From positions 2,244 through 66,243 of the forward strand of contig CAZWYP010000006.1 of NCBI GenBank assembly GCA_964638415.1: DNA of 64,000 nt. Direction: 5' to 3'. A model generated the notes under the pieces. That model was given only the letters and a program-made list of their open reading frames with translations. It was not told the origin of the DNA and ran no database searches. Shown one piece after another: positions 7,501-46,611 of this stretch (the first letter of the stretch is position 1; every line of letters starts with the position of its first letter). The position numbers were made by a program, and so were the translations under genes. This DNA comes from an uncultured Gammaproteobacteria bacterium. Lineage in GTDB: Bacteria > Patescibacteriota > Patescibacteriia > UBA1558 > GWA2-36-10.

Positions 7501-7510
7501 TTTATTAAAT

Positions 7511-8497
7511 TTAAACAAACCAGCGCTGCATGTCTTCCGCTTTAATCTGGCGGTATTTTTTAATCTGCCTTTTTTTGTCGCGGAATTTAGGCAATAGCTG
7601 GAAGAATTCAAGCCAGCCTTTCAGCGTAGCTCTTTCCCTTAATAATAAATAGCCAAATTTCTTAAATTCATACCAAATAATTGGAAAAAAATCCTTGAAG
7701 AAATTCTTAGCAAAAGAGTTTTTGTAAATCATTGCCAGATGATTGCGGTAAGACAAGCGATTAGCAAAGCCCCTTTGCTTGCGGAAGCCCAACCCTTTAT
7801 TACTCACTGTCCGATGATGGTAAGCTATGGTTTCTGCTACCAGCCAATTCTCCCAGCCATTCAAGCGCAGGCGCCAAGCCAAATCAATGTCCTCCTTGTA
7901 AGCAAAGAAGTCCTCATCAAAATACTCGTAATTGCCATTGCCCTTGTCGTACTTAATCTTCTCCAGGCACTGGCGCCTAACCAATAAAGCAGTAGCGGAT
8001 AATCCGAAAACTTCCTGATTGATAGGATCATTATCTGGCTGGCCTTGAGCCATGTCTACTACCTGGCGATTGCGGCTTATTTTCAGCCCCAAAGAATCTA
8101 TGGTCTGGGTAAGATTATTGGCATGGAAATCCCAATATAATAGTTTGCCGGAAGCTGACGCAGCCATGGGATTAGCTTCCATAAACGCTACTAACTTCTC
8201 TAAATAGTCATTGGCCAGCATCACATCCTGGTTAAGGAATAGAATATAGTCCGACTTAGACCAGTTAATTAATAAATTGTGGCCTTTGGCAAAACCGATA
8301 TTCTGCTTCTGCTGGATGACTTTGGCCGGTGGATAATACTCCTTCATAGTAGCGACGGAATTATCGGTGGAAGCATTGTCCAAAACCAATAATTCCCAGT
8401 CGGTAAAAGTCTGGTTCTGCAGGCTTTTAATTAACCAGGGCAAATACTGGGCGCCATTCCAAGTTAATAAGCTAATAGTTACTTTAGGCTTGTTCAT
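7511..8497 (-). CDS. glycosyltransferase family 2
   Basis: 328 aa. VTISLLTWNGAQYL...LVLDNASTDNS GT2 signature. Confidence 0.75.
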   Translation of the reverse strand: MNKPKVTISLLTWNGAQYLPWLIKSLQNQTFTDWELLVLDNASTDNSVATMKEYYPPAKVIQQKQNIGFAKGHNLLINWSKSDYILFLNQDVMLANDYLEKLVAFMEANPMAASASGKLLYWDFHANNLTQTIDSLGLKISRNRQVVDMAQGQPDNDPINQEVFGLSATALLVRRQCLEKIKYDKGNGNYEYFDEDFFAYKEDIDLAWRLRLNGWENWLVAETIAYHHRTVSNKGLGFRKQRGFANRLSYRNHLAMIYKNSFAKNFFKDFFPIIWYEFKKFGYLLLRERATLKGWLEFFQLLPKFRDKKRQIKKYRQIKAEDMQRWFV

Positions 8498-34339: not shown

Positions 34340-36430
34340 TTAAGAAGCTACTTCCAATTGATAACCATTCTTATCATTACTGTCGCGCAGATAAAAACTA
34401 TTTTTTTCTACGCCGTCATAATTGTAAATTCGCAATAAAGCAGCTGATCCTTTATGCGGCAAAGTTAAAATCTCAGGAATGCCATCGCCAGATAAATCAC
34501 GCACCACCAATTCCACTCCTCCTTTATAATTAGCATTAAAGGCTAACCAATCATGTTTAAGCTTACCCTTATAGCTAAATAAGCGAATCTGAGTGGCTAA
34601 ATTACGACTGGGAGCGGTAACAATTTCCTGCCAACCGTCATTATTCACATCACCTACGCTTACCTCTACTCCCTGGTCAAAATTGTCATAAGCAACAAAC
34701 TGGCTGTATAAACGGTTGCGCCAGTCAAAAACCTTCACTTCACTTATTCGACCGGCTGCTGGCGCAGTAATGATCTCGTCTTTACCATCATTATTCACAT
34801 CGCCAAGAGCTAAATTTACTCCGCCATAATAATTTCCCTCATAAACGAAAAATTGGTTTTTTACCTGACCCTGCCAATTAAAAATCTTCAAATGCGGGCC
34901 ACCCTTACTTTCTGGGGCAGTAATAATTTCGTTTTGGCCATCGCCATCAATATCCCCGATGGCAATATTGACTCCGCCGGAAAACTTAGCATCATAAGCA
35001 AACCACTCGGATAATAATTCTCCAGCTAAGCTAAAAACTTTAAGATGCGGTCCGCCGCCGGCTTTGGGAGCAGTGATAATTTCCATTAAATCATCATTAT
35101 TCACATCACCGATAGCAATATTGACTCCACCTTTAAACTTTTCTGCATAAGCCAGAAAATTATCTAATTCATTTCCTTCCTGATCTAAAACAATAATTTG
35201 GGGAATTTGACCGCTGTCTGGAGCTATTACCAAATACTTTAATTCATCTTCCAATTGCGCGGCTAAATTAAGAGCCGCACCAATATCAATTAAGCCGGAG
35301 CCTAGAGCTGCATAGTTATCTGGATTAGCCGTTTTTAAGCTTTGAGAGCTCTGAGATAGAATATTATAAATATTATAAGGGCGCAGGTTGGGATAATGCA
35401 TTTTCAACAAACTGGCGGTGCCGGAAATTATCGGCGCAGCCACTGATGTTCCTGACCAGCCAGTTCCGTAATACGCTGTTAGTTTACTATCTCCAGTTTT
35501 TTGAAATAAAGTAGAATAAAAGTTAGCGCCGGGAGCGGAAAGATCAATACAGTTGCTGCCATGATTGGCAAAGGTAGCTAATTTTTTCTGATTATCAACC
35601 GCCGATACTCCCAACACCCGGTTAATCTCATCCAATTCACATACCGGGTAACGCGGAGTAACATTAAGATTCAATCCTTTGTTCTCTTCATTGCCGGAAG
35701 CTGCCACCACTACCACTCCCGCCTCATAAGCTTCCTTAATCGCTTGCTTAATAGTATTATCGTAAGACTTACCAACTAAGCTTAGATTAATAATATCCGC
35801 TCCATTCTCTACGGCATAATCAATAGCTTGGGACAAAACTAAAGTATTGCCCTGACCAAATTCATCCAAAATACGCAAAGGCATTATTTTAGCGTGGGGA
35901 GCAATGCCGACAATCCCGCTGTCATTAGCCGTTCCGGCCAAAATTCCCGCCACTACTGTACCATGATTAATTGACACTATATCGTATTCCCCAGAAACAT
36001 CTGGCTCTGGAACATTGTCGCTGTCAACAAAATCCCAGCCTACCACATCGTCAATATAGCTATTGCGATCATCATCAATGCCATTATCCGCTATTTCTCC
36101 GGCATTTAACCAAATATTATTAACTAAATCCGGATGATCCAAATCAACTCCGGAATCTAAGATAGCCACTACTACTTCTTTATTCACTTGCAAATCATTA
36201 GACCAGCTGGGCTTAATATTAATCAAATCAAAATACGTCTGGTAAACCAAGTTGGGATCCTGCGGAGTATAATCCTGTTTAAACCTGCTAACCGCAGAAA
36301 CTGTAGGCAATAAAAGCAATAAGCCAAGGGTTAAATTTAAAGAATATAATAACTTTTTTAACACGCCGTGGTTAATTAAATAATTAGGCCATAATTTGTC
36401 TAAATTATAACAAAAAACCCTGTTAATCAC
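34340..36430 (-). CDS. subtilisin-like serine peptidase (S8) with C-terminal FG-GAP repeat beta-propeller
   Basis: 696 aa. Catalytic triad motifs DSGVDLDHPDL, HGTVVAGI, GTSVAAP. C-terminus has 5-6 repeats of about 47 aa (GGVNIAIGDVNNDG..EIITAP..GGPHLKVF). Confidence 0.8.
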   Translation of the reverse strand: MINRVFCYNLDKLWPNYLINHGVLKKLLYSLNLTLGLLLLLPTVSAVSRFKQDYTPQDPNLVYQTYFDLINIKPSWSNDLQVNKEVVVAILDSGVDLDHPDLVNNIWLNAGEIADNGIDDDRNSYIDDVVGWDFVDSDNVPEPDVSGEYDIVSINHGTVVAGILAGTANDSGIVGIAPHAKIMPLRILDEFGQGNTLVLSQAIDYAVENGADIINLSLVGKSYDNTIKQAIKEAYEAGVVVVAASGNEENKGLNLNVTPRYPVCELDEINRVLGVSAVDNQKKLATFANHGSNCIDLSAPGANFYSTLFQKTGDSKLTAYYGTGWSGTSVAAPIISGTASLLKMHYPNLRPYNIYNILSQSSQSLKTANPDNYAALGSGLIDIGAALNLAAQLEDELKYLVIAPDSGQIPQIIVLDQEGNELDNFLAYAEKFKGGVNIAIGDVNNDDLMEIITAPKAGGGPHLKVFSLAGELLSEWFAYDAKFSGGVNIAIGDIDGDGQNEIITAPESKGGPHLKIFNWQGQVKNQFFVYEGNYYGGVNLALGDVNNDGKDEIITAPAAGRISEVKVFDWRNRLYSQFVAYDNFDQGVEVSVGDVNNDGWQEIVTAPSRNLATQIRLFSYKGKLKHDWLAFNANYKGGVELVVRDLSGDGIPEILTLPHKGSAALLRIYNYDGVEKNSFYLRDSNDKNGYQLEVAS

Positions 36431-36530
36431 AAGTAAAATTTATAATCACTATAAATACATGATATACTAAAAAAGATGTCTTCAAGGCTCATTAAAGTCT
36501 TGGCTAATAATTAACAAAAAAATATGAATA

Positions 36531-36560
36531 AAAAAACACCCTGTTTTCAGGGTGTTTTTT
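36531..36560. terminator. bidirectional rho-independent terminator
   Basis: Perfect hairpin caccctg tttt cagggtg flanked by an A7 run and a T6 run. Immediately after the stop of the glycoside hydrolase gene. Confidence 0.55.
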
Positions 36561-37548
36561 ATTTGACAAATAATTGCTTGGCAAAATCCCAATACTGACT
36601 ATCCCCGTTCTGCTTTTGCCAATACCACCACTCTATTCCCCATAAATAAGTAGCAGGAAAATTAATATTCTGTGCTAGCTGGACATTGGCTCTAAATTGC
36701 TGCAAATCAAAAGATTTTTGGTACTCTTCCTTAGATAAATCCTGCAAACGGCCAGTGGGAGACCAAGGTTCAGCTTGTAATTCACTAATCACTACTTGAT
36801 CTGCCTTATCTACTCTAGCTGCTTTCCATTGGTAAAACCAGCTGGGTAAAAACCAGCGCCAATAACCGAAATTCTTATTCCACGCCACCCGATACAATGA
36901 TGATCCCAATTGGTCAGCTAATTTCCCTTCTTTGCCCCACATGCTTAATTCTCCAGAAACAGTAAGTAAAATCGGGCGATCGTCCAAACTTTTAACTAGG
37001 GAGATTTCTTTCTTTAAAAAATCCTCATCAGCAGCTGGGCAAACACCAAACCAATCTACTAGCGGCTCATTCTCTACCTGCCAGGCAATAATTTCCTTTC
37101 GATCTCGGTAGCGTTCTACCACCATTTTCAGCATCGCCAAGGTTCTTTGCTGCTTAACTTCCAATTCAGAATTTTCTAACCAAGCCGGCGTATGGCATTC
37201 CGGCCAGCGCGGCAAGCGCCAGCCAATTGCTGCCAAAAACTGAACATCGCGCTTAGCGCCTTCATTTAAAATTTCATCGAATTTGCCAAAATCATAAACA
37301 CCTTCTGTGGCTTCGATCTCATCCCAGTAAATCGGCAAACGCACCTTTTTAATCTGCAGGTCGTCAAAAGCTGCTTGGTAAACTTCCTGCCAGGATAATT
37401 CTAAACGATCCGTCTGCTTGGTGGAGAAAGTCACTCCCCAGAACTGATTATCTGTCCTTAATTCTTTTATCCGGGGATAATGCTTGTCAAAACGGAGATA
37501 CCAAACAGCAAAAACGATAATTAAAATTAGAATAATAATTTTCCACAT
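36559..37548 (-). CDS. membrane-anchored clan GH-A (TIM-barrel) glycoside hydrolase, GH5/GH10-like
   Basis: 329 aa. N-terminal TM. Putative acid/base motif WQVENEP and nucleophile motif VISELQ. Confidence 0.5.
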   Translation of the reverse strand: MWKIIILILIIVFAVWYLRFDKHYPRIKELRTDNQFWGVTFSTKQTDRLELSWQEVYQAAFDDLQIKKVRLPIYWDEIEATEGVYDFGKFDEILNEGAKRDVQFLAAIGWRLPRWPECHTPAWLENSELEVKQQRTLAMLKMVVERYRDRKEIIAWQVENEPLVDWFGVCPAADEDFLKKEISLVKSLDDRPILLTVSGELSMWGKEGKLADQLGSSLYRVAWNKNFGYWRWFLPSWFYQWKAARVDKADQVVISELQAEPWSPTGRLQDLSKEEYQKSFDLQQFRANVQLAQNINFPATYLWGIEWWYWQKQNGDSQYWDFAKQLFVK

Positions 37549-37551
37549 AAT

Positions 37552-38484
37552 TTAAATGGCAATAAAATACAAACCTAGACTAATTAAAATAATAGCAATC
37601 GCCTTCTGGATAATTACCGCTTTACTAATATTCTCTTTGACTATTTGCGGGAAAAACAAAGACAATAATGCGCCAAAGATCAGGAGAAAAGCATATTCCA
37701 CTCCCTGCAAAGCGCTCACTAAAGCCACTGAGGCTAAAGATACTGCATAATTCTGGAGCAAGAAACCGACAGCAGCAATTAATTGGTTAATTAAAAAAAT
37801 AATCCTCCCTTTTTGTTTTAAATTAAACAAACTTTTAAAAATCTTCTTCCGGTAATCATTCCTAATTAGCAAAAACAAGACGGCAATAAAACTGCCTAAA
37901 CGCATCCAGATAAAACCGCTAAAGAAGGGCTGATGGGTATAAAGATATTTAGTGCCGACAAAAAATAAGCCAAAAAACAAACCAGCACCCAAAGCAAACC
38001 AAATAGCCAAAACTTGGTTTTCCGCTTCCGGACGAAACCAAGCTTTAATCTTATCCCATAATTCATGAGAGTCAGGAAACCAAGAAATAATAATAGTACC
38101 TAAAAGCAATAAAATAATAGCTAGCCATTGGTAGAAAGTAAAAGACTCCTTCAGTAAAAAAATGGACAGAATTAAGATAAAAATAGGTATAGAGCCTCCC
38201 ATAATGGGAATGATCCGCGAAGCTTCGCCTAATTTTAAGGCTTTGTACATTAAAAGCAAAGCAATAGGAAACAAAGCGCCAACTAATAAATTAAGGCTAA
38301 AAACCGTCCAGCCGCTCCAGATTAGCCACCAGGGCGCCAATAGCCAGACTAATAAACCCAATATTCCTACGAGAAAAGTATAAGCATGGTGATTAGGTAA
38401 GAATTTCTGCAGTAAAAACTTATCAGTCAAATTGACTAGAGCGAGAATAAAATAAGCAATAATAGCAATTAATAACCAAGACAT
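37552..38484 (-). CDS. EamA/DMT-superfamily membrane transporter-like protein
   Basis: 310 aa with about 10 TM. GEASRIIPIMGGSIPIFILILSIFLLKE resembles the EamA motif. Confidence 0.45.
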   Translation of the reverse strand: MSWLLIAIIAYFILALVNLTDKFLLQKFLPNHHAYTFLVGILGLLVWLLAPWWLIWSGWTVFSLNLLVGALFPIALLLMYKALKLGEASRIIPIMGGSIPIFILILSIFLLKESFTFYQWLAIILLLLGTIIISWFPDSHELWDKIKAWFRPEAENQVLAIWFALGAGLFFGLFFVGTKYLYTHQPFFSGFIWMRLGSFIAVLFLLIRNDYRKKIFKSLFNLKQKGRIIFLINQLIAAVGFLLQNYAVSLASVALVSALQGVEYAFLLIFGALLSLFFPQIVKENISKAVIIQKAIAIILISLGLYFIAI

Positions 38485-38500
38485 ATAAATATTATATTAT

Positions 38501-39616
38501 TTAATCTTGAATGCAGCGAACAGAGCCTGCATAAAAATCTCCAGAAATAGCACCTCGATAACGACCTACCGTAGCTAAAGCACTGCTAAAAGTCCGATAC
38601 CAAGCACTACTTAAGCCATATTTAGTAGAAGACCAAATCCAGCCTGTACCGTCTTGATACAAAAACATATATTCATAATTATCCCAAATTCCGCCTAAAA
38701 CATCATTAAATCCAGAGGAACCTCCTGCTTTTAATTTAGTGCCTTCATTGGTTCCTCGCCAACCAGTAGTAGTCGTGTCAATCGGAAAATCAGTAGTACA
38801 GCTGCCAGAAGTACAGACTGCTCTTTCTAAAGTAGTAAATTCATCATGAGTTGGAATATGCCAACCGGTTGGACAAATACCTTGAGCGCCATTAACTTCC
38901 GAGCCACACATCGCTTGTGGCCAGATGTAAATACCACCATCTGCTGTACAATTAGCTTCCGAATCATTATAGCAATACTTTTTAATAGCCGCTGCCGAAA
39001 CGCAACTGTAACCACCAGTACCCCCAGCTACCCTGGTGCCGACATTAAGATTCTGTGCAAACCAGCACTGCGTGCCAATCTGCACAGTTGCATAATTAAC
39101 CCCCTCGTAACTAACCGTATCACCACAAGCAAATCCACCACCACCTTCTTCTCCGGCACTAGCTGTATATTCATAACAATGTTCAACTACAAAACCGGCA
39201 TCGCTTACTCTGGTAATATAATAACCCGTATCATCACCCGTAGCATCAGGATCAATTGGCAATTCACCAATGTACGGCTCCATTAAAGAAGCTAGATCAA
39301 CTCTGGCAATATCCTGACCCAAAGTGGTGCAGGTAGCATTACCGGCAGTGGAACCCCCAGCAGAAACCAGCATATAAGGAGTATTAAGAGTTAAAGCGGC
39401 AATAGCTGCTGGCACTGTGCCATTATTATCTGCTACTAAGGTAGTTAAGCATTTTTCTAACTCATCACAATTCTTATCTCGTAAGGAGTTTTGTGCTTCG
39501 CCAAAACGTCGAGCTGGATCAACTGCAACAAAAACTACCGCCGCCAATACCCCAATAACGGCAATTACTAAAATGATTTCTATTAAAGTAAACCCTTTCT
39601 CTTTACTTAAAAACAT
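38501..39616 (-). CDS. type IV pilin-like protein with C-terminal Fib_succ_major (FISUMP) domain
   Basis: 371 aa. Class III signal plus N-methylation site KG/FTLIEIILVIAVIGVLAAV. C-terminal QCWFAQNLN...CPTGWHIPTHDEF...WSSTKYG...GSVRCIQD matches the TIGR02145 pattern. Confidence 0.7.
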   Translation of the reverse strand: MFLSKEKGFTLIEIILVIAVIGVLAAVVFVAVDPARRFGEAQNSLRDKNCDELEKCLTTLVADNNGTVPAAIAALTLNTPYMLVSAGGSTAGNATCTTLGQDIARVDLASLMEPYIGELPIDPDATGDDTGYYITRVSDAGFVVEHCYEYTASAGEEGGGGFACGDTVSYEGVNYATVQIGTQCWFAQNLNVGTRVAGGTGGYSCVSAAAIKKYCYNDSEANCTADGGIYIWPQAMCGSEVNGAQGICPTGWHIPTHDEFTTLERAVCTSGSCTTDFPIDTTTTGWRGTNEGTKLKAGGSSGFNDVLGGIWDNYEYMFLYQDGTGWIWSSTKYGLSSAWYRTFSSALATVGRYRGAISGDFYAGSVRCIQD

Positions 39617-39718
39617 GTAAAATTGTTGCTTATCAACATTTTTAAGTTAACTTTAGCATTATTTGTAAGTAATTATAACATTTTTAATCAAAAAATCCAA
39701 AAATAATATTAAGAGGAA

Positions 39719-39747
39719 TTGACAAAAAATATAATCCAGAGTATGCT
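39719..39747 (+). promoter_or_regulatory. putative promoter TTGACA-17-TATGCT
   Basis: Perfect -35 hexamer at 39719-39724. 17-nt spacer. The gene at 39791 is preceded by a strong SD GGAGG. Confidence 0.35.
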
Positions 39748-39790
39748 ATTGCTTAATTTGTTCATTACACCAATTTAATCGGAGGAATCC

Positions 39791-40225
39791 ATGACTAGTT
39801 TAGGCCAATTTACCTGCCTTAATCCCCACTGTCCTGATCACCAAAAACCAGAACAAGGAAACATAACTTTATACACCTTTTACAGCCGGAAGCGAGTCCG
39901 CTTGTTACTCTGCCGTACTTGCGGCAAAACCTTCAGTGAACTGAAAGGGACGCCATTCTGGGGCACTAGACTGGATTGGAATACAATCGTTATCATTTAC
40001 CGTGGACTATTGTCTGGTGGGACCATTCGCGGCACAGCTAGAGACTACAATTTCTCCAAAAATACCATCAAGCGCTACCTAGATCTGCTTAATGACAATT
40101 TTCCTGCTGTGGAGAAATTACTAATTGACCAGCAGGTGATCTTACCTGGACAGCAGCAAATGCTCCTAGATCTAAAAAAACGCTTTCCTAGAACTGTTAA
40201 ATTAGCAGGCAAAAAAGCTCACTAG
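39791..40225 (+). mobile_element. IS1 InsA-like / transposase N-terminal zinc-ribbon + HTH protein (orphan, no DDE domain)
   Basis: 144 aa. C-x4-C...C-x2-C zinc ribbon (CLNPHCPD...CRTCGKTF) followed by an HTH (GTIRGTARDYNFSKNTIKRYL), as in IS1 InsA and IS1595 N-termini. Higher GC and a strong SD, unlike native genes. No downstream transposase catalytic ORF. Confidence 0.5.
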
Positions 40226-40242
40226 AACAGTGCTAATGGAAA

Positions 40243-40284
40243 TAAAAAACCCTGAACCAATTTGGACAGGGTTTTCTTCTTTTA
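40243..40284. terminator. bidirectional rho-independent terminator
   Basis: Hairpin aaccctg...cagggtt flanked by an A-run and ttttcttctttt. Shared by the plus-strand IS-like gene and the minus-strand Cys-rich ORF. Confidence 0.55.
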
Positions 40285-40285
40285 T

Positions 40286-40423
40286 TTAAGAGCAGCAGTC
40301 GCATCCATCGGCACAATTACAGCCTTCGCCGGAACAATTGCAGTCATTTTTACCGCAATTGCAACCCATTGAATCGCTGCAAGTACATGGATCATTGCCG
40401 CAATTTGGACAAACATCTCCCAT
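40286..40423 (-). CDS. metallothionein-like cysteine-rich small protein (45 aa)
   Basis: Not in the ORF track because it is under 60 aa. Minus-strand ATG to TAA gives MGDVCPNCGNDPCTCSDSMGCNCGKNDCNCSGEGCNCADGCDCCS. It has 13 Cys in 45 residues, arranged as CxC/CC clusters with no aromatic residues. Terminator immediately downstream. Confidence 0.5.
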   Translation of the reverse strand: MGDVCPNCGNDPCTCSDSMGCNCGKNDCNCSGEGCNCADGCDCCS

Positions 40424-40454
40424 GATTTGCAAATTAATAATTAACTATTTGTTA

Positions 40455-41789
40455 TTATAGACTATTAATAATTTCCCGCAAGGGCTGCATTAAACTGGAA
40501 GAGAATTCTCTATCAGTAATAGCCGATGAGGCCACAATAGCGTTATGTGGTTTATGCTTATCTCTCTGATATTTCCTGGGATAATGCGCTTCAATAGCAC
40601 CATTAGGTAAAACAAAAATATGATTGAGTTTCAATTCTTCAATTAACTGATCTGCATTATTGCTCTTTGGTCTAATCTTTAAATAATTTAAAATATTATT
40701 CAGCTGCCAACCAACTGCATCCCTATCCATGACAATTAAAAATCTGATGTTGAAAATCTTGAGTAATTCAATAAACAGCATCATATTCCCTTTGCCGTGG
40801 GTTTGCACCACCTTTATCTCCTGATCACCGCCATAATAACGATCAATTAAGCCGCGTAATAGGATTCTATCCGATACTCCTTCCACCAAAACTACGGTAT
40901 CGGCAAAAAACATTTCCAAATTATCCGCATCTAATTCCTGGATTAAGCGCTGGCCAAAATAATGACGTTTGGTCAAAGACAAACCAAAAGCTTCCGTACT
41001 CTTTTCGCTTTTTACCACTCTAATTACCTGCGGCAAGGTAATAGCTTTAATAAATAATGGAGAATGGGTAGTGAAGAATATCTGAGCACCACTGCTATTC
41101 TGCATCGCCCACAATAATTTCTTGATTAAAATAGGATGCAAATGAGTTTCTGGTTCGTCAATAATCACCAATTGGTATTCTGGATGGAAGATATAAAGCA
41201 AGATGGTAAAAACCCGGCGGAAGCCGGAACCTAGACGATCTAAGGTGACTTTCCTATCTGCTTCCTGCAGACCAGTTGTCTCATAATTAATATCTAGGGC
41301 ATTCTTGCCAGTAACTATCTTGGGAAAATGTTTAGCTAGATTCTGCTGAAACTCAGCCAAACTCTCCGGATATTTTCGCAGACTCTGCCAATCTTTCTTA
41401 ATCTGATCTAAATTATGAAAATCATTAGAAGTAAGGTGCTTAACTGTCTTTGCTAAATAATTAGCTAATTTTCCTTGGTAAGGCAATACTTTATTGCCAA
41501 AAATTAACTGCCGTTGCTTATTTTTTAACTGTAATAGGCCTTGGCTTAAAGGTAAATTAAATTGTTTCTGCTCTTCTTTGCTAAAATTCAACGCAATTTC
41601 AATATCTGCCTTGGGATAATCTAAAGCCTCACTGGTATCTTTCTTATTAAAAGCATAATCTATAGCATAAAGAATATTACTTTTGCCACAGTTGTTCTGA
41701 CCGATCAAAATACTAATCGGTAAACCAGTCAGTAAAATAGGCTTCTTGATGCTTTTGTAATAATTTATTTTTAGCTTGGCAATGCGCAT
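40455..41789 (-). CDS. OLD-family ATP-dependent endonuclease (AAA_21-type ATPase + TOPRIM)
   Basis: 444 aa. Walker A LIGQNNCGKSNILYAI (P2 Old/GajA-like GxNxxGKSN). Walker B LVIIDEPETHLHP. H-loop FFTTHSP. TOPRIM motifs VVLVEGVSDRILL and LIVMDRDA. Confidence 0.65.
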   Translation of the reverse strand: MRIAKLKINYYKSIKKPILLTGLPISILIGQNNCGKSNILYAIDYAFNKKDTSEALDYPKADIEIALNFSKEEQKQFNLPLSQGLLQLKNKQRQLIFGNKVLPYQGKLANYLAKTVKHLTSNDFHNLDQIKKDWQSLRKYPESLAEFQQNLAKHFPKIVTGKNALDINYETTGLQEADRKVTLDRLGSGFRRVFTILLYIFHPEYQLVIIDEPETHLHPILIKKLLWAMQNSSGAQIFFTTHSPLFIKAITLPQVIRVVKSEKSTEAFGLSLTKRHYFGQRLIQELDADNLEMFFADTVVLVEGVSDRILLRGLIDRYYGGDQEIKVVQTHGKGNMMLFIELLKIFNIRFLIVMDRDAVGWQLNNILNYLKIRPKSNNADQLIEELKLNHIFVLPNGAIEAHYPRKYQRDKHKPHNAIVASSAITDREFSSSLMQPLREIINSL

Positions 41790-43123
41790 TATAGCAATTG
41801 GATATCCTCTATTTCCCTGACCTTGTTATGCAAAACAATATTTTCAATGTGATAAGTTCCCATTTTCGGAGCATCTAAATATCCTTGCATAGCAGCTTCT
41901 GCCAGCCAGCCGGAATTCAGCCAGTCAAACAACCACTCATTGACATATTTGACATCCGGGGCATCAATGCCCGCTCCCAGAGCCAATAACCAATCCCGGT
42001 TATAAAACTCCTGAGAACCTACCGGTGGAGTCATTAAAATAGGAATGCCCAAGCCGCTGTAAAAAGTAAGTTCCGAGGGCTTGGTCCACAGAATATCCGT
42101 TGCTCTTAAGGCTTTGTTGAATAATTTAAAATAGTTCTGCTTGTCTTCAGAAAAGATAATATCAATATTTCTACAATCATTAAGCCGGCAGTCTTTAATG
42201 GCCTTTTGGAAAAAAACATAAACATCATTTCTGGCACCCGCTACTAAATTTAAATGAATTTGCCCAGTCTTAATTTGTCTATGCAATAAATGGGCAATTT
42301 CTGCGCCAATCTCTCTTTGCGCGCCAGCTCCACCCACCGCAAAAGTAATAGTCAATGGACGATTAGGCTTTTTAATGTTGCGAATCGGGCAAAGATAGTC
42401 TTCTAATAATTTTGAGTACTTATGCCGGTAAATTCCTTTGGGATCCAGCATAGCCAAGCGATCTTTTAAATCGCTTTTTAAAATCTTCTGATCCAAGCCT
42501 CCAATGTTCTCCTTAGGCAAAGGAAAGCCAGTGACATAAATATTCTGGGCTTTCACGCCGTACAATAAAAGGCGTTCTCTCACCCGCTTATTGGGAGCTA
42601 AATAGATAATTCTGCTTCTTTTTGGCTCCATTGGCGCCCAGGCTCTGGCGACATCGGCATCGGTAACTACTAGATAAATCTTTTCCGGATAATTATTGTA
42701 TTCTGCTACATAGGCCGGAACAAAAAAAGTAGTCACCATAGGCAATGGTTTTTTGCGCAAAATGTCTATTAAATTCTTGCCCATGCCCCGCTTAATCTTG
42801 CGGTAAAAGAATTTAAGCTGGGAATAAGGCTTAGATAAATCGCGCCGAGGATAAAACGGCTCAATCCTCTGGAAATAGTCCATTAAACGAAAAACCCATG
42901 GGCCGATGATCGGCACATCCTTAAAACGTGAAATCAATTCGTACAAAGTCCGGCTTTCATTCCATTCATACTGCTCGCGGCGAGAAATTCCCTGGTAGAA
43001 ATTAGCATTGATTACCCCATTGGGGCTTGAGCCAGCTAAGGGATGAGCGGCTCGCTGATGGCCATAGCCCATATCCACGGCAACGACATACATTTTATTT
43101 TGTTTTGGTGTTGGCTTGTCCAT
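41789..43123 (-). CDS. GT-B glycosyltransferase, MGDG-synthase/UgtP-like (GT28)
   Basis: 444 aa. N-terminal MYVVAVDMGYGHQRAA (cf. UgtP ILTANYGNGHVQVAK). Mid-region FVPAYVAEY...YLVVTDADVARAW...NIYVTGFPL parallels UgtP. C-terminal GT28 motif GIPILMTPPVGSQEFYNRDWLLALGAG. Its stop overlaps the OLD gene's start (TAATG). Confidence 0.65.
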   Translation of the reverse strand: MDKPTPKQNKMYVVAVDMGYGHQRAAHPLAGSSPNGVINANFYQGISRREQYEWNESRTLYELISRFKDVPIIGPWVFRLMDYFQRIEPFYPRRDLSKPYSQLKFFYRKIKRGMGKNLIDILRKKPLPMVTTFFVPAYVAEYNNYPEKIYLVVTDADVARAWAPMEPKRSRIIYLAPNKRVRERLLLYGVKAQNIYVTGFPLPKENIGGLDQKILKSDLKDRLAMLDPKGIYRHKYSKLLEDYLCPIRNIKKPNRPLTITFAVGGAGAQREIGAEIAHLLHRQIKTGQIHLNLVAGARNDVYVFFQKAIKDCRLNDCRNIDIIFSEDKQNYFKLFNKALRATDILWTKPSELTFYSGLGIPILMTPPVGSQEFYNRDWLLALGAGIDAPDVKYVNEWLFDWLNSGWLAEAAMQGYLDAPKMGTYHIENIVLHNKVREIEDIQLL

Positions 43124-43257
43124 TATAACTAATATCGCAAGCTGATAATATTCTTGCCGGATTTTTTCCGATGCTTTTTCAAAGCTTGTTTGCGCTTCTT
43201 ATTCATCTTAAAAAATCTATTAACTAATTATATTAAGTATATTATAACACAAACTAG

Positions 43258-43431
43258 CTACTTCTTAGAAGTCAGGCGTAAATATATTCCTAATAGCAAA
43301 AGAAAATAAAACCAGTATTCTAAGTTAATAAATCGCTGCACTGAGCCGGATGATGATAATTCCCAGACTACTAATAGCAACCAAACTGCCAAAGCAATAA
43401 CAAATAATTCTTTAATCAGCTTTCTAATCAT
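43258..43431 (-). CDS. possible small membrane peptide (57 aa)
   Basis: Minus-strand ORF MIRKLIKELFVIALAVWLLLVVWELSSSGSVQRFINLEYWFYFLLLLGIYLRLTSKK. Its ATG overlaps the upstream gene's TGA (ATGA). One or two TM. No homology recognised. Confidence 0.25.
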   Translation of the reverse strand: MIRKLIKELFVIALAVWLLLVVWELSSSGSVQRFINLEYWFYFLLLLGIYLRLTSKK

Positions 43432-43925
43432 CGCTTAAGAATTAATTTTAAATCATTGAAAGTAATACTGCCGGGATCCATTAAATCCGGAAAAGAGAAG
43501 ATAATCTGCAGTTTATTATTATTAATAGCTGCTGAAGATAAGTCAAAGCCTGTTGTAAACTCTCCCTTAGCAAGTTCCTGCCATTGCCAGCTGCCGTCTG
43601 ACTGCTTAAGGCCAATATCTGCCCTAACGGGTGAAGAAATATTTCCCACTATCGACAGCTTGCTATAGCCATCGGGAATATAAGCCTGTAGATACAAGGG
43701 TTCAGCTAAAACTGCTAACTGCTTATTGGCTGGCAGAAAATTAGTGCGATTTAATGGATAAAGTCCAAAAACATCCCTAGTTAAACCGTCTTTAAAATCC
43801 ACTGAATAAGTAAGTTCTTGAGATAAAACAAAATTATTCTGCACTAAATAACCAAATAAGATTATTGAAATTAACAACAGAAAATATCGCCAACCTAAAA
43901 TAATTTTTTCCTGATTTAATAACAT
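43428..43925 (-). CDS. hypothetical secreted/membrane-anchored protein
   Basis: 165 aa. N-terminal signal anchor. No recognisable motif. Confidence 0.45.
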   Translation of the reverse strand: MLLNQEKIILGWRYFLLLISIILFGYLVQNNFVLSQELTYSVDFKDGLTRDVFGLYPLNRTNFLPANKQLAVLAEPLYLQAYIPDGYSKLSIVGNISSPVRADIGLKQSDGSWQWQELAKGEFTTGFDLSSAAINNNKLQIIFSFPDLMDPGSITFNDLKLILKR

Positions 43926-43970
43926 GGCTTTATTTTAACAAAAAAGGCGAATTATGTTAAACTATAGCCG

Positions 43971-46091
43971 ATGATTACTTTTGGTAAAATCCAGCATTTA
44001 GCTATTCAAAGCGGAACAATATTAGTCTTGGCAGCTAATTGGCAATGGTGGCATTCTCCGCTAGTCGGCATTTTGGCCGGTTTTTTTTATTTATTCTTCA
44101 ATAGCAAGAAATTAGGCGATATCTTTTTTGACAAAGCCCGACCCAGCTTTAAAAATATCTTGGGCTTATTGACTATTATTATCTACTTAAGCCTACTCTA
44201 TACCACTGCTTATCATTTCTACCAAATCAATGACTTAATTTTCTGGGTAGCTTTGCTTTCCATACCTTTAGCGGTAGAAATTATTTCTCGCAGCTTGAAC
44301 CGGGAGCATTATTATTTTACCGAATTGGATATCCCTAATATCCGCTTGGCTAATATTAAAAACTTAATCCTTCCTCTTATTATCCTAATTTTAGATGGTT
44401 TAACTTTCTGGCTGCTGTTTCGCCGAGCAACAGTGGAAGTTTTACGCTCCCCTTGGGAGATATTAGATGCTAAATTCTGGCTATTATTAATTGTCAGCAC
44501 AATCTTGCTGGTAATTTTTATTCTGCACAGCCAGCAAGCTAATAAGCCATTATTTCTAATGGCTGTCCACTTCCTATTATTCTCCAGCATTGCTTTAATC
44601 CTCTATCCTTTGGGCTTTGGCTATGATCCGTTTATCCACCAGGCTAATATGAAAATAATCGCCGAAACCGGAACTTTAAATCCTCGACTCTTCCTGTACA
44701 TCGGACAATATGGGCAGATATTCTTCTTAAGCGATTTATGGCAAATTTCTTTGAATACTATCAATAAGCTATTCATGCCTTTTGCTTTCAGCTTATTCTG
44801 GCCTTATACCCTTTATTACGGCCTGCGCTATGGCTTGAACTGGCCGCGCAGAATGAGCATGATCTGCATTTTAGCCAGCTTACTGGTTGGTTTTAATTTT
44901 GCCATCATGTCCACTCCGCAAAATCTGACTTTTCTGCTGTTTGCTATCTTCATTTTCCTGATTCCAGTTATTCGCAAGGGAAGCATCAGTCTTTATTTCG
45001 GATTAAGTTTAAGCTTAGCCGCTTTAACTATTCATCCTTTAGGCGGTATCCCCCTGCTTTATTCCGTAGTATTGCTGATGATAACCAAATCCGAATTTTC
45101 TAAGCTATGGAAAAGTATTTTATACTACTTATCTTTACTAGGTGCAGCTATTAGCTTACCCCTGCTGTTAGCGCTCTACCAGCGCTTAGCTGGCCGCTCT
45201 TGGCAAGCTATTCTAACTTGGCATCCTTGGCCACTAATTGATTTCCCGCCTTTACAATTCTACTCTGCTTATTCCTGGCCTTTGGACATGCTGCACAATC
45301 TTTGGGATAATCGCTTCTGGCTATTCTTCCTGCTACTTACTATTGGCCTGGTGTTGATTATTAAAAAAAACAAGGTTTTATTCTTCAAAAGGCATTTAAC
45401 TATTCTAGGTCTATTAATCTCTAATTATTTACTAGCGAGATTATTTATCTCCTTTGACACGCAAATCGCCTATGAGCAGACTGCCTATCTGTTGCGCATT
45501 ACTTATTTAATTAGCCTGACTGCTTTGCCAATAATCCTCACTGCTTTTTACTTCTGGTGGCGCCCCTATACGGAAAAAAATAATTTCACTTGGTACAAGC
45601 TCTGGCTAACTGTCCTCACCAGCTTATTATTATTCGTCAGCCTGTATTTCAGCTATCCAGTCTATGACCGCTATACCAACAGCAAAAGCTTCAATGTCAC
45701 CGCTGCTGATCTGGAAACTGTGACCACCATTGAACAGACTGCGGGCAACCAGCCGTATATTGTCCTAGCTAACCAAATGGTGGGAGCAGCCGCTATTAAC
45801 ACCTATGGCTTTGCCCATTATTACCCAGCGGGCAGCCATGATAATTTCTATTATTCCATGCCTTTGGGCATTGACAATATTTACCAAAACTTCCTTAATA
45901 TGATAGAAGCCAAAGCTGACCGAGCTGAAGCTTTAGCCGCGATGGATAAAGCTGAAGTAGACAGACTATATTTCGTGGTCAATAATTACTGGCATTCAGC
46001 TAAAACCGCCATTAGCCAAGCTAAGACAACTGCTGATGAATACTTTACTGTCAGCGGAGAAAAAAATTACGTTTTTGTCTATTACCGCTAA
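43971..46091 (+). CDS. hypothetical large polytopic membrane protein (possible GT-C-like)
   Basis: 706 aa with at least 14 TM followed by a C-terminal soluble domain of about 170 aa. No catalytic motif identified. Confidence 0.5.
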   Translation: MITFGKIQHLAIQSGTILVLAANWQWWHSPLVGILAGFFYLFFNSKKLGDIFFDKARPSFKNILGLLTIIIYLSLLYTTAYHFYQINDLIFWVALLSIPLAVEIISRSLNREHYYFTELDIPNIRLANIKNLILPLIILILDGLTFWLLFRRATVEVLRSPWEILDAKFWLLLIVSTILLVIFILHSQQANKPLFLMAVHFLLFSSIALILYPLGFGYDPFIHQANMKIIAETGTLNPRLFLYIGQYGQIFFLSDLWQISLNTINKLFMPFAFSLFWPYTLYYGLRYGLNWPRRMSMICILASLLVGFNFAIMSTPQNLTFLLFAIFIFLIPVIRKGSISLYFGLSLSLAALTIHPLGGIPLLYSVVLLMITKSEFSKLWKSILYYLSLLGAAISLPLLLALYQRLAGRSWQAILTWHPWPLIDFPPLQFYSAYSWPLDMLHNLWDNRFWLFFLLLTIGLVLIIKKNKVLFFKRHLTILGLLISNYLLARLFISFDTQIAYEQTAYLLRITYLISLTALPIILTAFYFWWRPYTEKNNFTWYKLWLTVLTSLLLFVSLYFSYPVYDRYTNSKSFNVTAADLETVTTIEQTAGNQPYIVLANQMVGAAAINTYGFAHYYPAGSHDNFYYSMPLGIDNIYQNFLNMIEAKADRAEALAAMDKAEVDRLYFVVNNYWHSAKTAISQAKTTADEYFTVSGEKNYVFVYYR

Positions 46092-46092
46092 A

Positions 46093-46131
46093 CAAAAAAA
46101 ATAACCCTGCACTTAGTGCAGGGTTATTTAA
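46093..46131. terminator. bidirectional rho-independent terminator
   Basis: Perfect hairpin aaccctgcac tta gtgcagggtt with an A8 run upstream and a T-rich stretch downstream. Sits between convergent genes. Confidence 0.6.
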
Positions 46132-46141
46132 TTTAACAGAA

Positions 46142-46423
46142 TTACAATACGGCTTCTTTAGCAGCCTTAGCAATGCGGAATTTGCAAACAGTCTTGGCTG
46201 GAATAGTAATCGTAGCGCCAGTGGCTGGATTGCGTCCCTGTCGGGCCTTGCGGTGCATTTTAACTAACTTACCAATGCCAGGCACGGTAAATTCACCATT
46301 TGATTTGACTTCTTTGTAAGCCAATTCAGTCATGAAGTCCAAAACAGTTTGGACATCCTTCTTGCTCAAACCTGACTTTTCAGCCAAGGTAGAGAGCACT
46401 TGAGTTTTGCTCATTTTAGCCAT
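46142..46423 (-). CDS. hup: DNA-binding protein HU
   Basis: 93 aa. HU/IHF signature GFGKF-like arm (NPATGATITIPAKTVCKFR). Confidence 0.9.
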   Translation of the reverse strand: MAKMSKTQVLSTLAEKSGLSKKDVQTVLDFMTELAYKEVKSNGEFTVPGIGKLVKMHRKARQGRNPATGATITIPAKTVCKFRIAKAAKEAVL

Positions 46424-46611
46424 ATTTTTGACTTTTTAGTTAATTAATTATTTATTTTATCTAACTTCACTACTGCTAATTTATCTTGTGGATAAGTCAG
46501 AGTATGGAAATTACTTAGGAATATTAGCATATTTTAAAAAGTTTGTGAATATTTAACCAATGTTTTCGGGGTTTTTTAATACATAGATAAAAAAATATGT
46601 CAAATGTTTAA

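What the first reader, a model, noticed from the sequence alone, without database searches (positions are those of the whole stretch)
40455..43123. OLD-family ATPase/TOPRIM nuclease translationally coupled to a UgtP/MGDG-synthase-like glycosyltransferase
Seen in sequence. The 444-aa downstream protein has the hallmark motifs of OLD-family nucleases: Walker A IGQNNCGKSNILYAI (P2 Old and Gabija GajA share GxNxxGKSN), Walker B LVIIDEPETHLHP, H-loop FFTTHSP, and TOPRIM VLVEGVSDRILL...LIVMDRDA. Its start codon overlaps the stop of the upstream 444-aa gene by one nucleotide (TAATG at 41787-41791). That upstream gene is a clear GT-B/GT28 diacylglycerol-glycosyltransferase homologue: MYVVAVDMGYGHQRAA; YLVVTDADVARAW...NIYVTGFPLP; GIPILMTPPVGSQEFYNRDWLLALGAG.

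Established knowledge: OLD proteins act in phage defence (P2 Old, Gabija GajA with the helicase GajB, class 2 OLD with UvrD-like helicases, PARIS AriA/AriB). They are normally solo or paired with helicases.

Inference: a glycosyltransferase partner is not a known arrangement. It could be a new defence or modification pairing (a sugar-transferring effector/sensor with a nuclease), or a nuclease inserted into a glycolipid-synthase operon. The pair sits in an accessory islet next to a transposase remnant and a foreign-looking Cys-rich ORF.
Basis: partly seen in the sequence, partly recalled or inferred. Interest (0 to 1): 0.7.

Follow-up and report, generated by a model that had tools for sequence, protein, structure and literature searches.

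The report
Compact OLD nuclease inside envelope operon
A small OLD-family ATPase-nuclease gene sits, overlapping by one base, behind a sugar-transferase gene in a Patescibacteria (CPR) genome, but comparison with about 120 related loci shows the nuclease was slotted once into an older cell-envelope operon and then inherited vertically, so it looks like a standalone (Class 1-type) OLD and not a new nuclease/glycosyltransferase defence pair.

Summary
Two 444-aa genes lie on the minus strand. The upstream one is a GT-B glycosyltransferase-like protein (Pfam DUF6938, remotely GT28/UgtP-like). The downstream one is a complete OLD-family ABC-ATPase + TOPRIM nuclease. They share one base (TAATG, 41787-41791).

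The proposed new GT+OLD defence pairing is not supported.
- The GT family is widespread in Patescibacteria, and GT is often followed by an EamA transporter and a GH-A-type glycosidase.
- OLD was absent from all 56 informative loci outside one monophyletic GT clade, and present in 13 of 13 loci inside it.
- In the sister OLD clade a CAP gene separates GT from OLD, or no GT is found in the 2.7 kb upstream.
- The next closest compact OLDs are solo genes in unrelated contexts.
- Within the clade, OLD diverges at the same rate and with nearly the same tree as GH. No defence genes flank it, its GC content is ordinary, and no viral relatives were found.

Best reading: a compact Class 1-type OLD was inserted once into an envelope operon. 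It was then retained under selection, since all catalytic residues are invariant. Whether it serves defence or a housekeeping role like archaeal Cran1 is open.

Interest is modest.

The parts
41789..43123 (-). DUF6938 GT-B glycosyltransferase-like protein (444 aa), remotely GT28/UgtP/MGD1-like. It is the upstream gene of the pair.
   Evidence: ORF. Pfam DUF6938 4e-14 (above cut-off); MGDG_synth 2e-4 (below cut-off). Family profile vs PDB: UgtP 9wde 3e-7. AF2 model pLDDT 86 with GT-B fold hits MnaA, MGD1 and MurG. More than 5600 homologues, very conserved (mean column identity 66-68%).
40455..41789 (-). Compact OLD-family ABC ATPase + TOPRIM nuclease (444 aa), Class 1-type.
   Evidence: Pfam AAA_15, AAA_21 and OLD-like_TOPRIM. 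PADLOC Old 1.4e-36. Ts OLD 6p74 is the best hit by sequence and by fold. AF2 pLDDT 86.
41787..41791 (-). TAATG junction: the GT stop codon and the OLD start codon share base 41789.
   Evidence: The same -1 overlap is found in L002, L007, L015 and L087. The gap is -4 in L090, +1 in L004, +22 in L010 and +565 in L008.
41661..41705 (-). Walker A / P-loop, IGQNNCGKSNILYAI (G30 and K36 invariant in the family).
41133..41174 (-). Walker B region, QLVIIDEPETHLHP. E212 is invariant. D211 varies between D, N and S among homologues.
   Evidence: Aligns with Ts OLD IIEEPE (E276).
41058..41078 (-). H-loop, FFTTHSP (H242 invariant; equivalent to Ts OLD H310).
40590..40910 (-). TOPRIM nuclease domain with invariant E303, D307, D355, D357 and E400. 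These correspond to Ts OLD metal A ligands E377/D431/D433 and metal B ligands D381/E480.
   Evidence: Pfam OLD-like_TOPRIM res 294-357. Alignment to 6p74. Invariance. Ts residues taken from PMC7049728.
37552..38484 (-). EamA/DMT-family transporter. It is the gene that most often follows GT in Patescibacteria and follows OLD in clade A.
   Evidence: Pfam EamA 6e-17. Synteny.
36559..37548 (-). Membrane-anchored clan GH-A (GH42/GH5/GH10-like) glycosidase-like protein, the last gene of the operon.
   Evidence: Pfam Glyco_hydro_42 1.4e-8. Conserved after EamA. Its tree matches the OLD tree.
36531..36560 (-). Terminator-like hairpin (13 bp stem followed by a T-run) right after the GH gene; the likely operon end.
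43258..43925 (-). Two small predicted membrane proteins (165 aa and 57 aa) upstream of GT. The 165-aa gene (tblastn) and a short following ORF (gene calls) recur at this position in clade A. A promoter-like site lies at 43960-43932.
38501..40454 (.). Segment between OLD and EamA that is specific to this genome. It holds a Cys-rich 48-aa ORF (40286-40432, -), a TnsD-like fragment (39791-40225, +) and a pilin-like N_methyl + Fib_succ_major protein (38501-39616, -).
   Evidence: In other clade A genomes the OLD-to-EamA gap is -4 to 968 nt.

Best explanation
The locus is a conserved Patescibacteria cell-envelope operon. It runs: small membrane proteins, DUF6938 GT-B glycosyltransferase, EamA/DMT transporter, membrane-anchored GH-A glycosidase-like protein, terminator.

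In the ancestor of one lineage, a compact (~440 aa) Class 1-type OLD gene was inserted once between GT and EamA. It has been inherited vertically with the operon ever since. In clade A the gene sits tightly against GT. In several genomes it sits equally tightly against EamA.

Shown:
- The identity and fold of both proteins.
- Invariance of the ATPase residues (K36, E212, H242) and of the two-metal TOPRIM residues (E303, D307, D355, D357, E400).
- The phylogenetic distribution.

Inferred:
- The OLD works on its own, like Ts OLD, P2 Old and Vibrio cholerae OLD. It would act as an oligomeric ABC ATPase whose nucleotide state licenses metal-dependent nicking or degradation of DNA by the TOPRIM domain.
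- Its most likely role is protection against phage or other foreign DNA.
- It is co-transcribed with the envelope genes only because of where it landed.
- The GT is most likely a UDP-sugar-dependent lipid/envelope glycosyltransferase that works with EamA and the GH-like protein, not with the nuclease.
For: 1. GT-to-EamA-to-GH is a common arrangement. EamA follows GT directly in 23 loci.
2. OLD is absent from all 56 informative loci outside one clade.
3. All 13 OLD+ loci, including the window, form one clade in the GT tree. Its closest outgroups, L009 and L011, have GT then EamA with gaps of only 24 and 7 nt.
4. Synteny in OLD+ genomes is HU / 700-aa membrane protein / 166 aa / ~60 aa / GT / OLD / EamA / GH / S8 peptidase / GtrA / GT2 / epimerases. 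The four-gene block also persists in a different flank (L090).
5. In the OLD tree, clade A is monophyletic and its sister (P0241, P0242) is also embedded upstream of EamA-GH. There, however, a CAP gene (L091) lies between GT and OLD, or no GT is found in the 2.7 kb upstream (L125). The next relatives are solo genes beside an integrase, beside TraG/PTP/MnmA, or beside an RND pump.
6. Within clade A, mean pairwise identities are GT 0.67, OLD 0.57, GH 0.60 and EamA 0.55. The OLD tree is nearly the GH tree. Distance correlations are GT-OLD r=0.44 versus GH-OLD r=0.77.
7. Tight junctions are not specific to GT-OLD. OLD overlaps EamA by 4 nt in L004 and sits 1 nt from it in L007 and L087.
8. There is no GC anomaly. 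PADLOC finds no defence hit in 10 neighbours apart from a generic subtilase, and none for GT. No close relative of either protein was found in IMG/VR.
9. The best solved relative is the Class 1 Ts OLD, and the catalytic residues are invariant.
Against: - The -1 or -4 GT/OLD overlap is kept in most clade A lineages, whereas the OLD-to-EamA junction is the one that accumulates insertions (gaps up to 1970 nt). GT-OLD is therefore the tighter junction.
- A defence gene fixed in every sampled member of a clade, at one locus, evolving no faster than its neighbours, is atypical for defence genes. It resembles the Cran1 pattern (PMC12796447).
- The GT of L091 groups with a different GT clade than the OLD tree predicts. 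The history may therefore involve losses or block transfer, not one clean insertion.
- No biochemical or expression data exist.
- The Walker B Asp is replaced by N or S in many homologues, so ATPase properties may be unusual.
Confidence: 0.6

Rival explanations
1. Domesticated OLD with a non-defence role. After fixation in the operon, the compact OLD would serve a housekeeping function. One candidate is chromosome or cell-cycle-related nicking, as with archaeal Cran1. Another is processing of DNA taken up through the pilus/competence machinery for nucleotide salvage in these auxotrophic CPR cells.
For: - The gene is present in 13 of 13 sampled clade A loci. It is vertically inherited with a conserved neighbourhood and evolves at the same rate as its neighbours.
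- A second compact-OLD lineage (P0244/P0245) also sits at a conserved housekeeping locus in two different genomes.
- Cran1 is a precedent in which the same signature led to a cell-cycle function (PMC12796447).
- Pilin-like genes have inserted next to OLD in two genomes: the window at 38501-39616, and L008 at 7320-7877.
Against: - Most relatives of the GT operon lack the gene entirely, so it is not generally required.
- One close relative lies beside an integrase (L093), which is typical of mobile or defence cargo.
- There is no experimental evidence.
- All characterised bacterial OLDs are defence-related (PMC10568477).
Confidence: 0.25
2. A true two-gene GT+OLD system. The glycosyltransferase would act as sensor, modifier or effector together with the nuclease, for example by sugar-modifying DNA or a surface receptor while the OLD attacks unmodified or foreign DNA.
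For: - The 1-nt stop/start overlap is conserved in most clade A lineages.
- The adjacency is retained across roughly 50-60% OLD identity.
- At least 34 of the 120 best OLD clusters share a longest-contig length with one of the 120 best GT clusters.
Against: - The GT family (>5600 hits) exists overwhelmingly without OLD, and when it does it keeps a similar sequence and, in many loci, the same EamA/GH partners.
- Compact OLDs exist without GT.
- GT and OLD are split by a pilin gene in L008 and by a CAP gene in L091.
- GT has no PADLOC hit, and the surroundings are not a defence island.
- GT-OLD distances correlate less well than GH-OLD distances.
- GT is among the most conserved genes at the locus, which is not the behaviour of an arms-race component.
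Confidence: 0.08
3. Chance juxtaposition unique to this genome, or a recent mobile-element insertion that brought OLD together with the TnsD-like fragment and the Cys-rich ORF.
For: A TnsD-like fragment, a Cys-rich ORF and a pilin-like gene lie directly downstream of OLD in this window only.
Against: - OLD occupies the same position in all 13 clade A loci, from MAGs variously labelled Komeilibacteria, Nomurabacteria or Parcubacteria. Most of them lack that extra segment.
- GC content is at background.
Confidence: 0.02

Closest known systems
Class 1 OLD nucleases (Thermus scotoductus OLD, PDB 6p74; phage P2 Old; Vibrio cholerae OLD; E. coli YbjD)
   Same: - N-terminal ABC ATPase with a helical insert plus a C-terminal TOPRIM domain in one chain.
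- No helicase, reverse transcriptase or AriB partner.
- No Class 2 helical insert or C-terminal bundle.
- Equivalent catalytic residues: K36/E212/H242, and E303/D355/D357 plus D307/E400.
- Ts OLD is the best sequence and fold match.
   Different: - About 80 residues shorter than Ts OLD (444 vs 525 aa). Most of the deficit lies before residue ~175, where the model shows only three helices (res ~106-154) in place of the four-helix dimerisation domain.
- Only ~17% identity to Ts OLD.
- The Walker B Asp position varies (D/N/S).
- The gene is embedded in, and co-oriented with, a conserved envelope operon and is vertically inherited. Class 1 genes are otherwise found in variable neighbourhoods.
Gabija GajA (Class 2 OLD) with the GajB helicase
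   Same: ATPase + TOPRIM fold (Foldseek 3e-17 to 8sm3_A); many PADLOC GajA profiles hit.
   Different: - No UvrD/PcrA-like helicase gene next to it.
- It is shorter.
- PADLOC matches cover only res ~200-360.
Cran1 (Sulfolobales OLD clade U11, PMC12796447)
   Same: Clade-restricted, vertically inherited OLD with a conserved gene neighbourhood.
   Different: Cran1 is archaeal and essential, with a demonstrated cell-cycle role.
GT28 lipid glycosyltransferases (B. subtilis UgtP, Arabidopsis MGD1, MurG), for the upstream gene
   Same: - GT-B fold.
- C-terminal TKP...G.P...GSQE..N nucleotide-sugar motif aligned to UgtP.
- N-terminal D-x-G-x-G-H loop. Its resemblance to the MGD1/UgtP G-loop is from memory, not tested.
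   Different: - Below the Pfam MGDG_synth and NCBIfam cut-offs.
- It forms its own family, DUF6938, which no paper in the searched library mentions.
- It is ~60-100 aa longer, with extra helices.
- Its partners are EamA and a GH-like protein.

Membership tests
OLD family (ABC ATPase + TOPRIM nuclease) | N-terminal ABC-type ATPase with Walker A Lys, Walker B acidic residue and H-loop His | tested here: met
   Pfam AAA_15 and AAA_21 above cut-off. K36, E212 and H242 are invariant in 25 homologues and align to Ts OLD K34, E276/E277 and H310.
OLD family (ABC ATPase + TOPRIM nuclease) | C-terminal OLD-type TOPRIM with conserved Glu and DxD, plus metal B ligands | tested here: met
   Pfam OLD-like_TOPRIM 3e-15, 56.9 bits vs cut-off 23.2. 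E303, D307, D355, D357 and E400 are invariant.
OLD family (ABC ATPase + TOPRIM nuclease) | Overall fold like solved OLD proteins | tested here: met
   AF2 model pLDDT 86. The top Foldseek hits are Ts OLD 7e-20, GajA 3e-17 and retron Eco8 OLD 4e-15.
OLD family (ABC ATPase + TOPRIM nuclease) | ATP hydrolysis and metal-dependent DNA nicking/cleavage | not testable with these tools
   Requires purified protein.
Class 1 OLD | Standalone gene: no adjacent UvrD/PcrA-like helicase (Class 2), no RT/ncRNA (Class 3), no split TOPRIM partner AriB (Class 4) | tested here: met
   Neighbours are GT, a Cys-rich ORF, a TnsD fragment, a pilin-like protein, EamA and GH. PADLOC finds no defence hit in 10 neighbours apart from a generic subtilase. 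No Rfam retron RNA. The TOPRIM is fused to the ATPase.
Class 1 OLD | Lacks the Class 2 TOPRIM helical insert / C-terminal helical bundle; shorter than Class 2 | tested here: met
   444 aa in total, with only ~45 residues after E400. Ts OLD (Class 1) is the best hit by both sequence and fold.
Class 1 OLD | Variable gene neighbourhoods / not in defence islands | tested here: inconclusive
   The compact-OLD family as a whole occurs in at least five different contexts. This clade, however, keeps one fixed operon position.
Gabija (GajA/GajB) | GajB UvrD-like helicase encoded next to GajA | tested here: not met
   No helicase in the flanks of the window or of any of the 13 clade A loci.
GT28 / MGDG_synth (UgtP, MGD1) | Match to Pfam MGDG_synth / Glyco_tran_28_C above the gathering score | tested here: not met
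   MGDG_synth 21.9 bits vs cut-off 25, and no Glyco_tran_28_C hit. NCBIfam diglucosyl-DAG synthase 24 bits vs cut-off 500.
GT28 / MGDG_synth (UgtP, MGD1) | GT-B fold with the C-terminal nucleotide-sugar motif | tested here: met
   Foldseek hits to MnaA, MGD1, MurG and WaaG. Profile vs UgtP 3e-7, aligning TKP...GxP...GQE..N.
Pfam DUF6938 | Match above the gathering score | tested here: met
   53.2 bits vs cut-off 27. All 120 listed homologues carry PF22053.
Hypothetical GT+OLD two-gene defence system | The two genes co-occur as a unit across unrelated genomes, independent of other neighbours | tested here: not met
   Co-occurrence is limited to one vertically related clade. GT occurs without OLD in 56 loci. 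OLD occurs without GT in L093-L097 and L125. Other genes intervene in L008 and L091.

The most novel reading that the evidence does not exclude
The compact OLD has been domesticated in a CPR lineage. It would be fixed inside a cell-surface operon, co-expressed with envelope and pilin-type genes, and used for a non-defence job. One possibility is Cran1-like chromosome or cell-cycle nicking. Another is processing of DNA imported for nucleotide salvage. Alternatively, it may be functionally coupled to the envelope module (GT/EamA/GH) in a way no known OLD is.
Probability: 0.2. Interest if true: 0.65.

Novelty: new member of a known kind. Interest (0 to 1): 0.3.

Why it matters
If the best reading holds, this is an ordinary standalone OLD nuclease. 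It is notable mainly as a minimal (~440 aa) Patescibacteria subfamily with a shortened dimerisation insert, which could be a convenient small model for Class 1 OLD biochemistry.

The case also shows that a 1-nt overlap in a compact CPR genome is not evidence of a functional pair.

Two side products may matter more:
1. An OLD gene that behaves like a core gene (fixed locus, vertical descent, neighbour-like evolutionary rate). This echoes the recent discovery that archaeal Cran1 is not a defence protein.
2. The DUF6938-EamA-GH triad. It is a very conserved, uncharacterised envelope module of Patescibacteria, organisms that cannot make their own lipids.

Tried and rejected
- The genome-contig scan with the single GT protein returned only one locus (L001). 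That locus was still informative, because GT there is followed by EamA and GH with no OLD. It consumed the only scan of that collection.
I rebuilt the alignment as A3.
- The look-up of P0246 found nothing on record.
- Rfam scans of the OLD-EamA gap in L002 and of window 36000-46500 gave only sub-threshold chance hits. There is no retron or other ncRNA.
- The viral-contig scans found no close relative of either protein.
- Literature searches for DUF6938 and for OLD + glycosyltransferase + Patescibacteria found nothing relevant.
- I considered a DNA-glucosylating GT, like T4 beta-glucosyltransferase, paired with a nuclease, and rejected it. The GT family is near-universal in these lineages, is partnered with a transporter and a membrane-anchored glycosidase, and is independent of OLD.
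- I considered a single clean insertion. The L091 GT groups with a different GT clade than its OLD does, so losses or transfer of an OLD-EamA-GH block cannot be excluded.
Full report
**1. The observation**

Window 40455-43123 holds two 444-aa ORFs on the minus strand.
- The upstream ORF (41789..43123) ends in a TAA whose last base is also the A of the ATG of the downstream ORF (40455..41789). The + strand reads CATTA at 41787-41791, which is TAATG on the coding strand.

**2. The downstream protein is an OLD-family enzyme**

Sequence and fold evidence:
- Pfam gives AAA_15 (4e-26), AAA_21 (3.5e-24) and OLD-like_TOPRIM (3e-15, residues 294-357), all above the gathering scores.
- The best PADLOC profile is 'Old' (1.4e-36), followed by AriA and many GajA profiles.
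- The best solved relative by sequence is the Class 1 OLD of Thermus scotoductus, 6p74 (1.3e-13).
- An AF2 model (pLDDT 86) finds the same protein first by fold (7e-20), then GajA and the retron-Eco8 OLD.

Catalytic residues in 25 homologues of 49-61% identity:
- Invariant: Walker A G30/K36, E212, H-loop H242, and TOPRIM E303, D307, D355, D357 and E400.
- These align with the Ts OLD residues shown by mutagenesis to be needed for ATPase activity (K34, E276, H310) and for two-metal cleavage (E377/D431/D433 and D381/S478/E480; PMC7049728).
- The Walker B Asp position (D211) varies between D, N and S.

Size: the protein is about 80 residues shorter than Ts OLD. Most of the deficit lies before residue ~175, where the model has three helices (about 106-154) in place of the four-helix dimerisation domain.

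**3. The upstream protein is a GT-B enzyme of its own family**

- Pfam places it in DUF6938 (4e-14). MGDG_synth scores 21.9 bits, under the cut-off of 25, and the NCBIfam diglucosyl-DAG synthase models score 24 bits against a cut-off of 500.
- A profile of 13 family members hits B. subtilis UgtP (9wde) at 3e-7 and aligns the C-terminal TKP...GxP...GQE..N motif.
- The AF2 model (pLDDT 86) has a GT-B fold, with UDP-GlcNAc 2-epimerases, MGD1, MurG and WaaG as best matches.
- 'UgtP/MGDG-synthase-like' is therefore acceptable as remote homology. 'Clear GT28 homologue' is too strong.
- The family is large (>5600 hits among the 8000 candidates scored), is labelled Patescibacteria wherever a source names the organism, and is very conserved (66-68% mean column identity).
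- No paper in the searched library mentions DUF6938.

**4. Is the pair conserved?**

Yes, but only in one lineage.
- At least 34 of the 120 best OLD clusters share a longest-contig length with one of the 120 best GT clusters.
- Direct look-ups show a common gene order in MAGs variously labelled Nomurabacteria, Komeilibacteria or simply Patescibacteria. The order is HU, a ~700-aa membrane protein on the other strand, a ~166-aa and a ~60-aa protein, GT, OLD, EamA transporter, GH-like protein, S8 peptidase/FG-GAP, GtrA, GT2, epimerases.
- In L090 the flanks differ, but GT-OLD-EamA-GH stays together.

**5. What the wider family shows**

I fetched 80 metagenome loci with a GT alignment, added L001, and scored each for the window's neighbours.
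- EamA follows GT directly in 23 loci, usually with the GH-like gene after it. L001 shows the same order with a more divergent EamA.
- OLD is found only where the GT is at least 63% identical to the window's.
- On a GT tree, the 13 OLD+ loci form one clade. None of the 56 informative loci outside it has an OLD.
- The closest outgroups, L009 and L011, have GT then EamA with gaps of only 24 and 7 nt.

OLD is therefore an addition to an older GT-EamA-GH operon.

**6. What the OLD's own relatives show**

An exhaustive search found only 34 50%-identity clusters at E <= 1e-30. These are a 'compact OLD' family of about 390-540 aa, most of them 420-480 aa. Beyond it, ordinary 530-700-aa OLD/GajA proteins match only residues ~170-360.

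Contexts of the nearest outgroups:

| Protein | Identity to window OLD | Locus | Context |
|---|---|---|---|
| P0241 | 42% | L091/L092 | GT, CAP-domain membrane protein, OLD, EamA, GH |
| P0242 | ~42% (tblastn) | L125 | dockerin-like protein, CAP, OLD, 123 aa, EamA, GH; no GT in the 2.7 kb upstream |
| P0243 | 39% | L093 | solo, beside a phage-type integrase |
| P0244, P0245 | 39-40% | L094-L096 | between a TraG-like/phosphatase pair and MnmA/AlaRS, in two genomes |
| P0249 | 35% | L097 | between an RND pump and a glyoxalase |

In the OLD tree, clade A is monophyletic. P0241 + P0242 are its sister, and the solo genes branch outside.

The association that persists longest is therefore OLD upstream of EamA-GH, not GT-OLD. 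The family as a whole is standalone.

One inconsistency remains. The GT of L091 is nearest (59%) to GTs of a different clade, while its EamA and GH are slightly closer to clade A. Losses, or a transfer of an OLD-EamA-GH block, cannot be excluded.

**7. Is the coupling specific?**

| Junction | Gap (nt) and loci |
|---|---|
| GT to OLD | -1 in L002, the window (L006), L007, L015, L087; -4 in L090; +1 in L004; +22 in L010; +565 in L008 |
| OLD to EamA | -4 in L004; +1 in L007, L087; +17 in L090; +19 in L008; then 676, 968 and 1970 where extra DNA has inserted |

(Gap values are.)
- In L008 a type-IV-pilin-like gene sits between GT and OLD.
- Tight junctions on both sides are what a compact CPR operon looks like. 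The GT-OLD junction is nevertheless the more stable of the two, and I count that as mild evidence for the rival.

Within clade A:
- The OLD tree is almost the GH tree.
- Mean pairwise identities are GT 0.67, OLD 0.57, GH 0.60 and EamA 0.55.
- Distance correlations are 0.44 for GT-OLD against 0.77 for GH-OLD.
- There is no sign of special GT-OLD co-evolution, of horizontal transfer inside the clade, or of accelerated, arms-race-type evolution.

**8. Is it a defence island or a mobile islet?**

- GC content is at the window background.
- Ten neighbours give no PADLOC hit except a generic subtilase, and GT gives none.
- Neither protein has a close relative in IMG/VR.
- Rfam finds no retron or other RNA.
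- The 'transposase remnant' (a TnsD-like fragment, below the Pfam cut-off), the Cys-rich 48-aa ORF and a pilin-like Fib_succ_major protein form a ~2 kb segment between OLD and EamA. That segment is specific to this genome.
- A strong terminator-like hairpin follows the GH gene, and a promoter-like site precedes the 165-aa ORF. This fits one transcription unit from 43.9 kb down to 36.5 kb.

**9. Mechanism**

Shown: a complete OLD enzyme with intact, selected ATPase and two-metal TOPRIM sites, inserted into a vertically inherited envelope operon and retained there.

Inferred: it acts autonomously, as Class 1 OLDs do. It would be an oligomeric ABC ATPase that controls metal-dependent nicking or exonucleolytic degradation of DNA, most probably foreign DNA (PMC7049728, PMC10568477, and the abstracts of PMC12392090 and PMC13261556).

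The GT most likely transfers a sugar from a UDP-sugar to a lipid or envelope acceptor. EamA would act as exporter or flippase, and the membrane-anchored GH-A protein would work outside the cell. This is inference from family and context only.

**10. Comparison and novelty**

By the published context-based definition, the gene is a Class 1 OLD: standalone, with no helicase, RT or AriB partner, no Class 2 insert, and Ts OLD as nearest structure.

It differs in three ways:
- It is minimal in size.
- Its Walker B Asp position is variable.
- In this clade it behaves like a core operon gene.

The last trait recalls Cran1. That Sulfolobales OLD drew attention because of its vertical inheritance and conserved neighbourhood, and it turned out to act in the cell cycle (PMC12796447). 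I give that type of reading about 0.2-0.25.

A true GT+OLD system gets about 0.08.

**Verdict**

This is a new member (a compact CPR subfamily) of a known kind. Interest is 0.3.

Noticed in passing
window 40286-40432 (-): A 48-aa ORF with 15 Cys (MQIMGDVCPNCGNDPCTCSDSMGCNCGKNDCNCSGEGCNCADGCDCCS) starts 23 nt after the OLD stop. It looks like a metallothionein or a Cys-rich peptide precursor. The Logan gene caller chose an overlapping 44-aa frame instead. No ORF of this kind was seen in the OLD-EamA gaps of L002 and L015, the two other clade A loci inspected.
   Followed up: partly
window 38501-39616 (-); L008 7320-7877 (+): Type-IV-pilin-like genes (N-terminal methylation motif; in the window it is fused to a Fib_succ_major domain) have inserted next to the OLD gene in two different genomes. 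In the window the insertion is downstream of OLD, and in L008 it is between GT and OLD. The junctions around OLD seem to be a landing site for surface-protein genes.
   Followed up: partly
window 39791-40225 (+): A 144-aa ORF with a weak TnsD (Tn7-like) match (1e-5, below the Pfam cut-off) lies on the opposite strand and appears only in this genome. It is probably a remnant of a mobile element.
   Followed up: partly
window 36559-38484 and 41789-43123 (-); L001, L009, L011, L035, L052, L060-L076 etc.: DUF6938 GT-B protein, then an EamA/DMT transporter, then a membrane-anchored GH-A glycosidase-like protein. This is a widely conserved three-gene module in Patescibacteria, and the GT is unusually conserved (66-68% mean column identity). 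No paper in the library mentions DUF6938. It may be an important envelope glycolipid/glycan pathway in organisms that lack lipid synthesis.
   Followed up: partly
window 43971-46091 (+): A 706-aa polytopic membrane protein with no Pfam match is transcribed divergently from the operon and is conserved at this position in clade A genomes (47-56% identity). It could be a GT-C-type or other envelope enzyme.
   Followed up: no
L094 6001-7332, L096 6001-7305: A second compact-OLD lineage sits at a conserved position in two different CPR genomes: SecDF, sigma-70, DUF8128, TrwB/TraG-like ATPase, PTP phosphatase, OLD, MnmA, AlaRS. This is another case of an OLD gene with stable, housekeeping-type neighbours.
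   Followed up: no
L091 3135-9561 (GC 52%) vs clade A loci (GC 29-39%): The GT of L091 groups with a different GT clade (59% to L030/L040) than its OLD, EamA and GH suggest. This hints at recombination or block transfer within the operon, or at multiple losses of OLD elsewhere.
   Followed up: partly
L002 12664-13631: A 968-nt stretch between OLD and EamA has no convincing ORF, only spurious-looking short ORFs, and no Rfam match above threshold. Its nature is unknown.
   Followed up: partly
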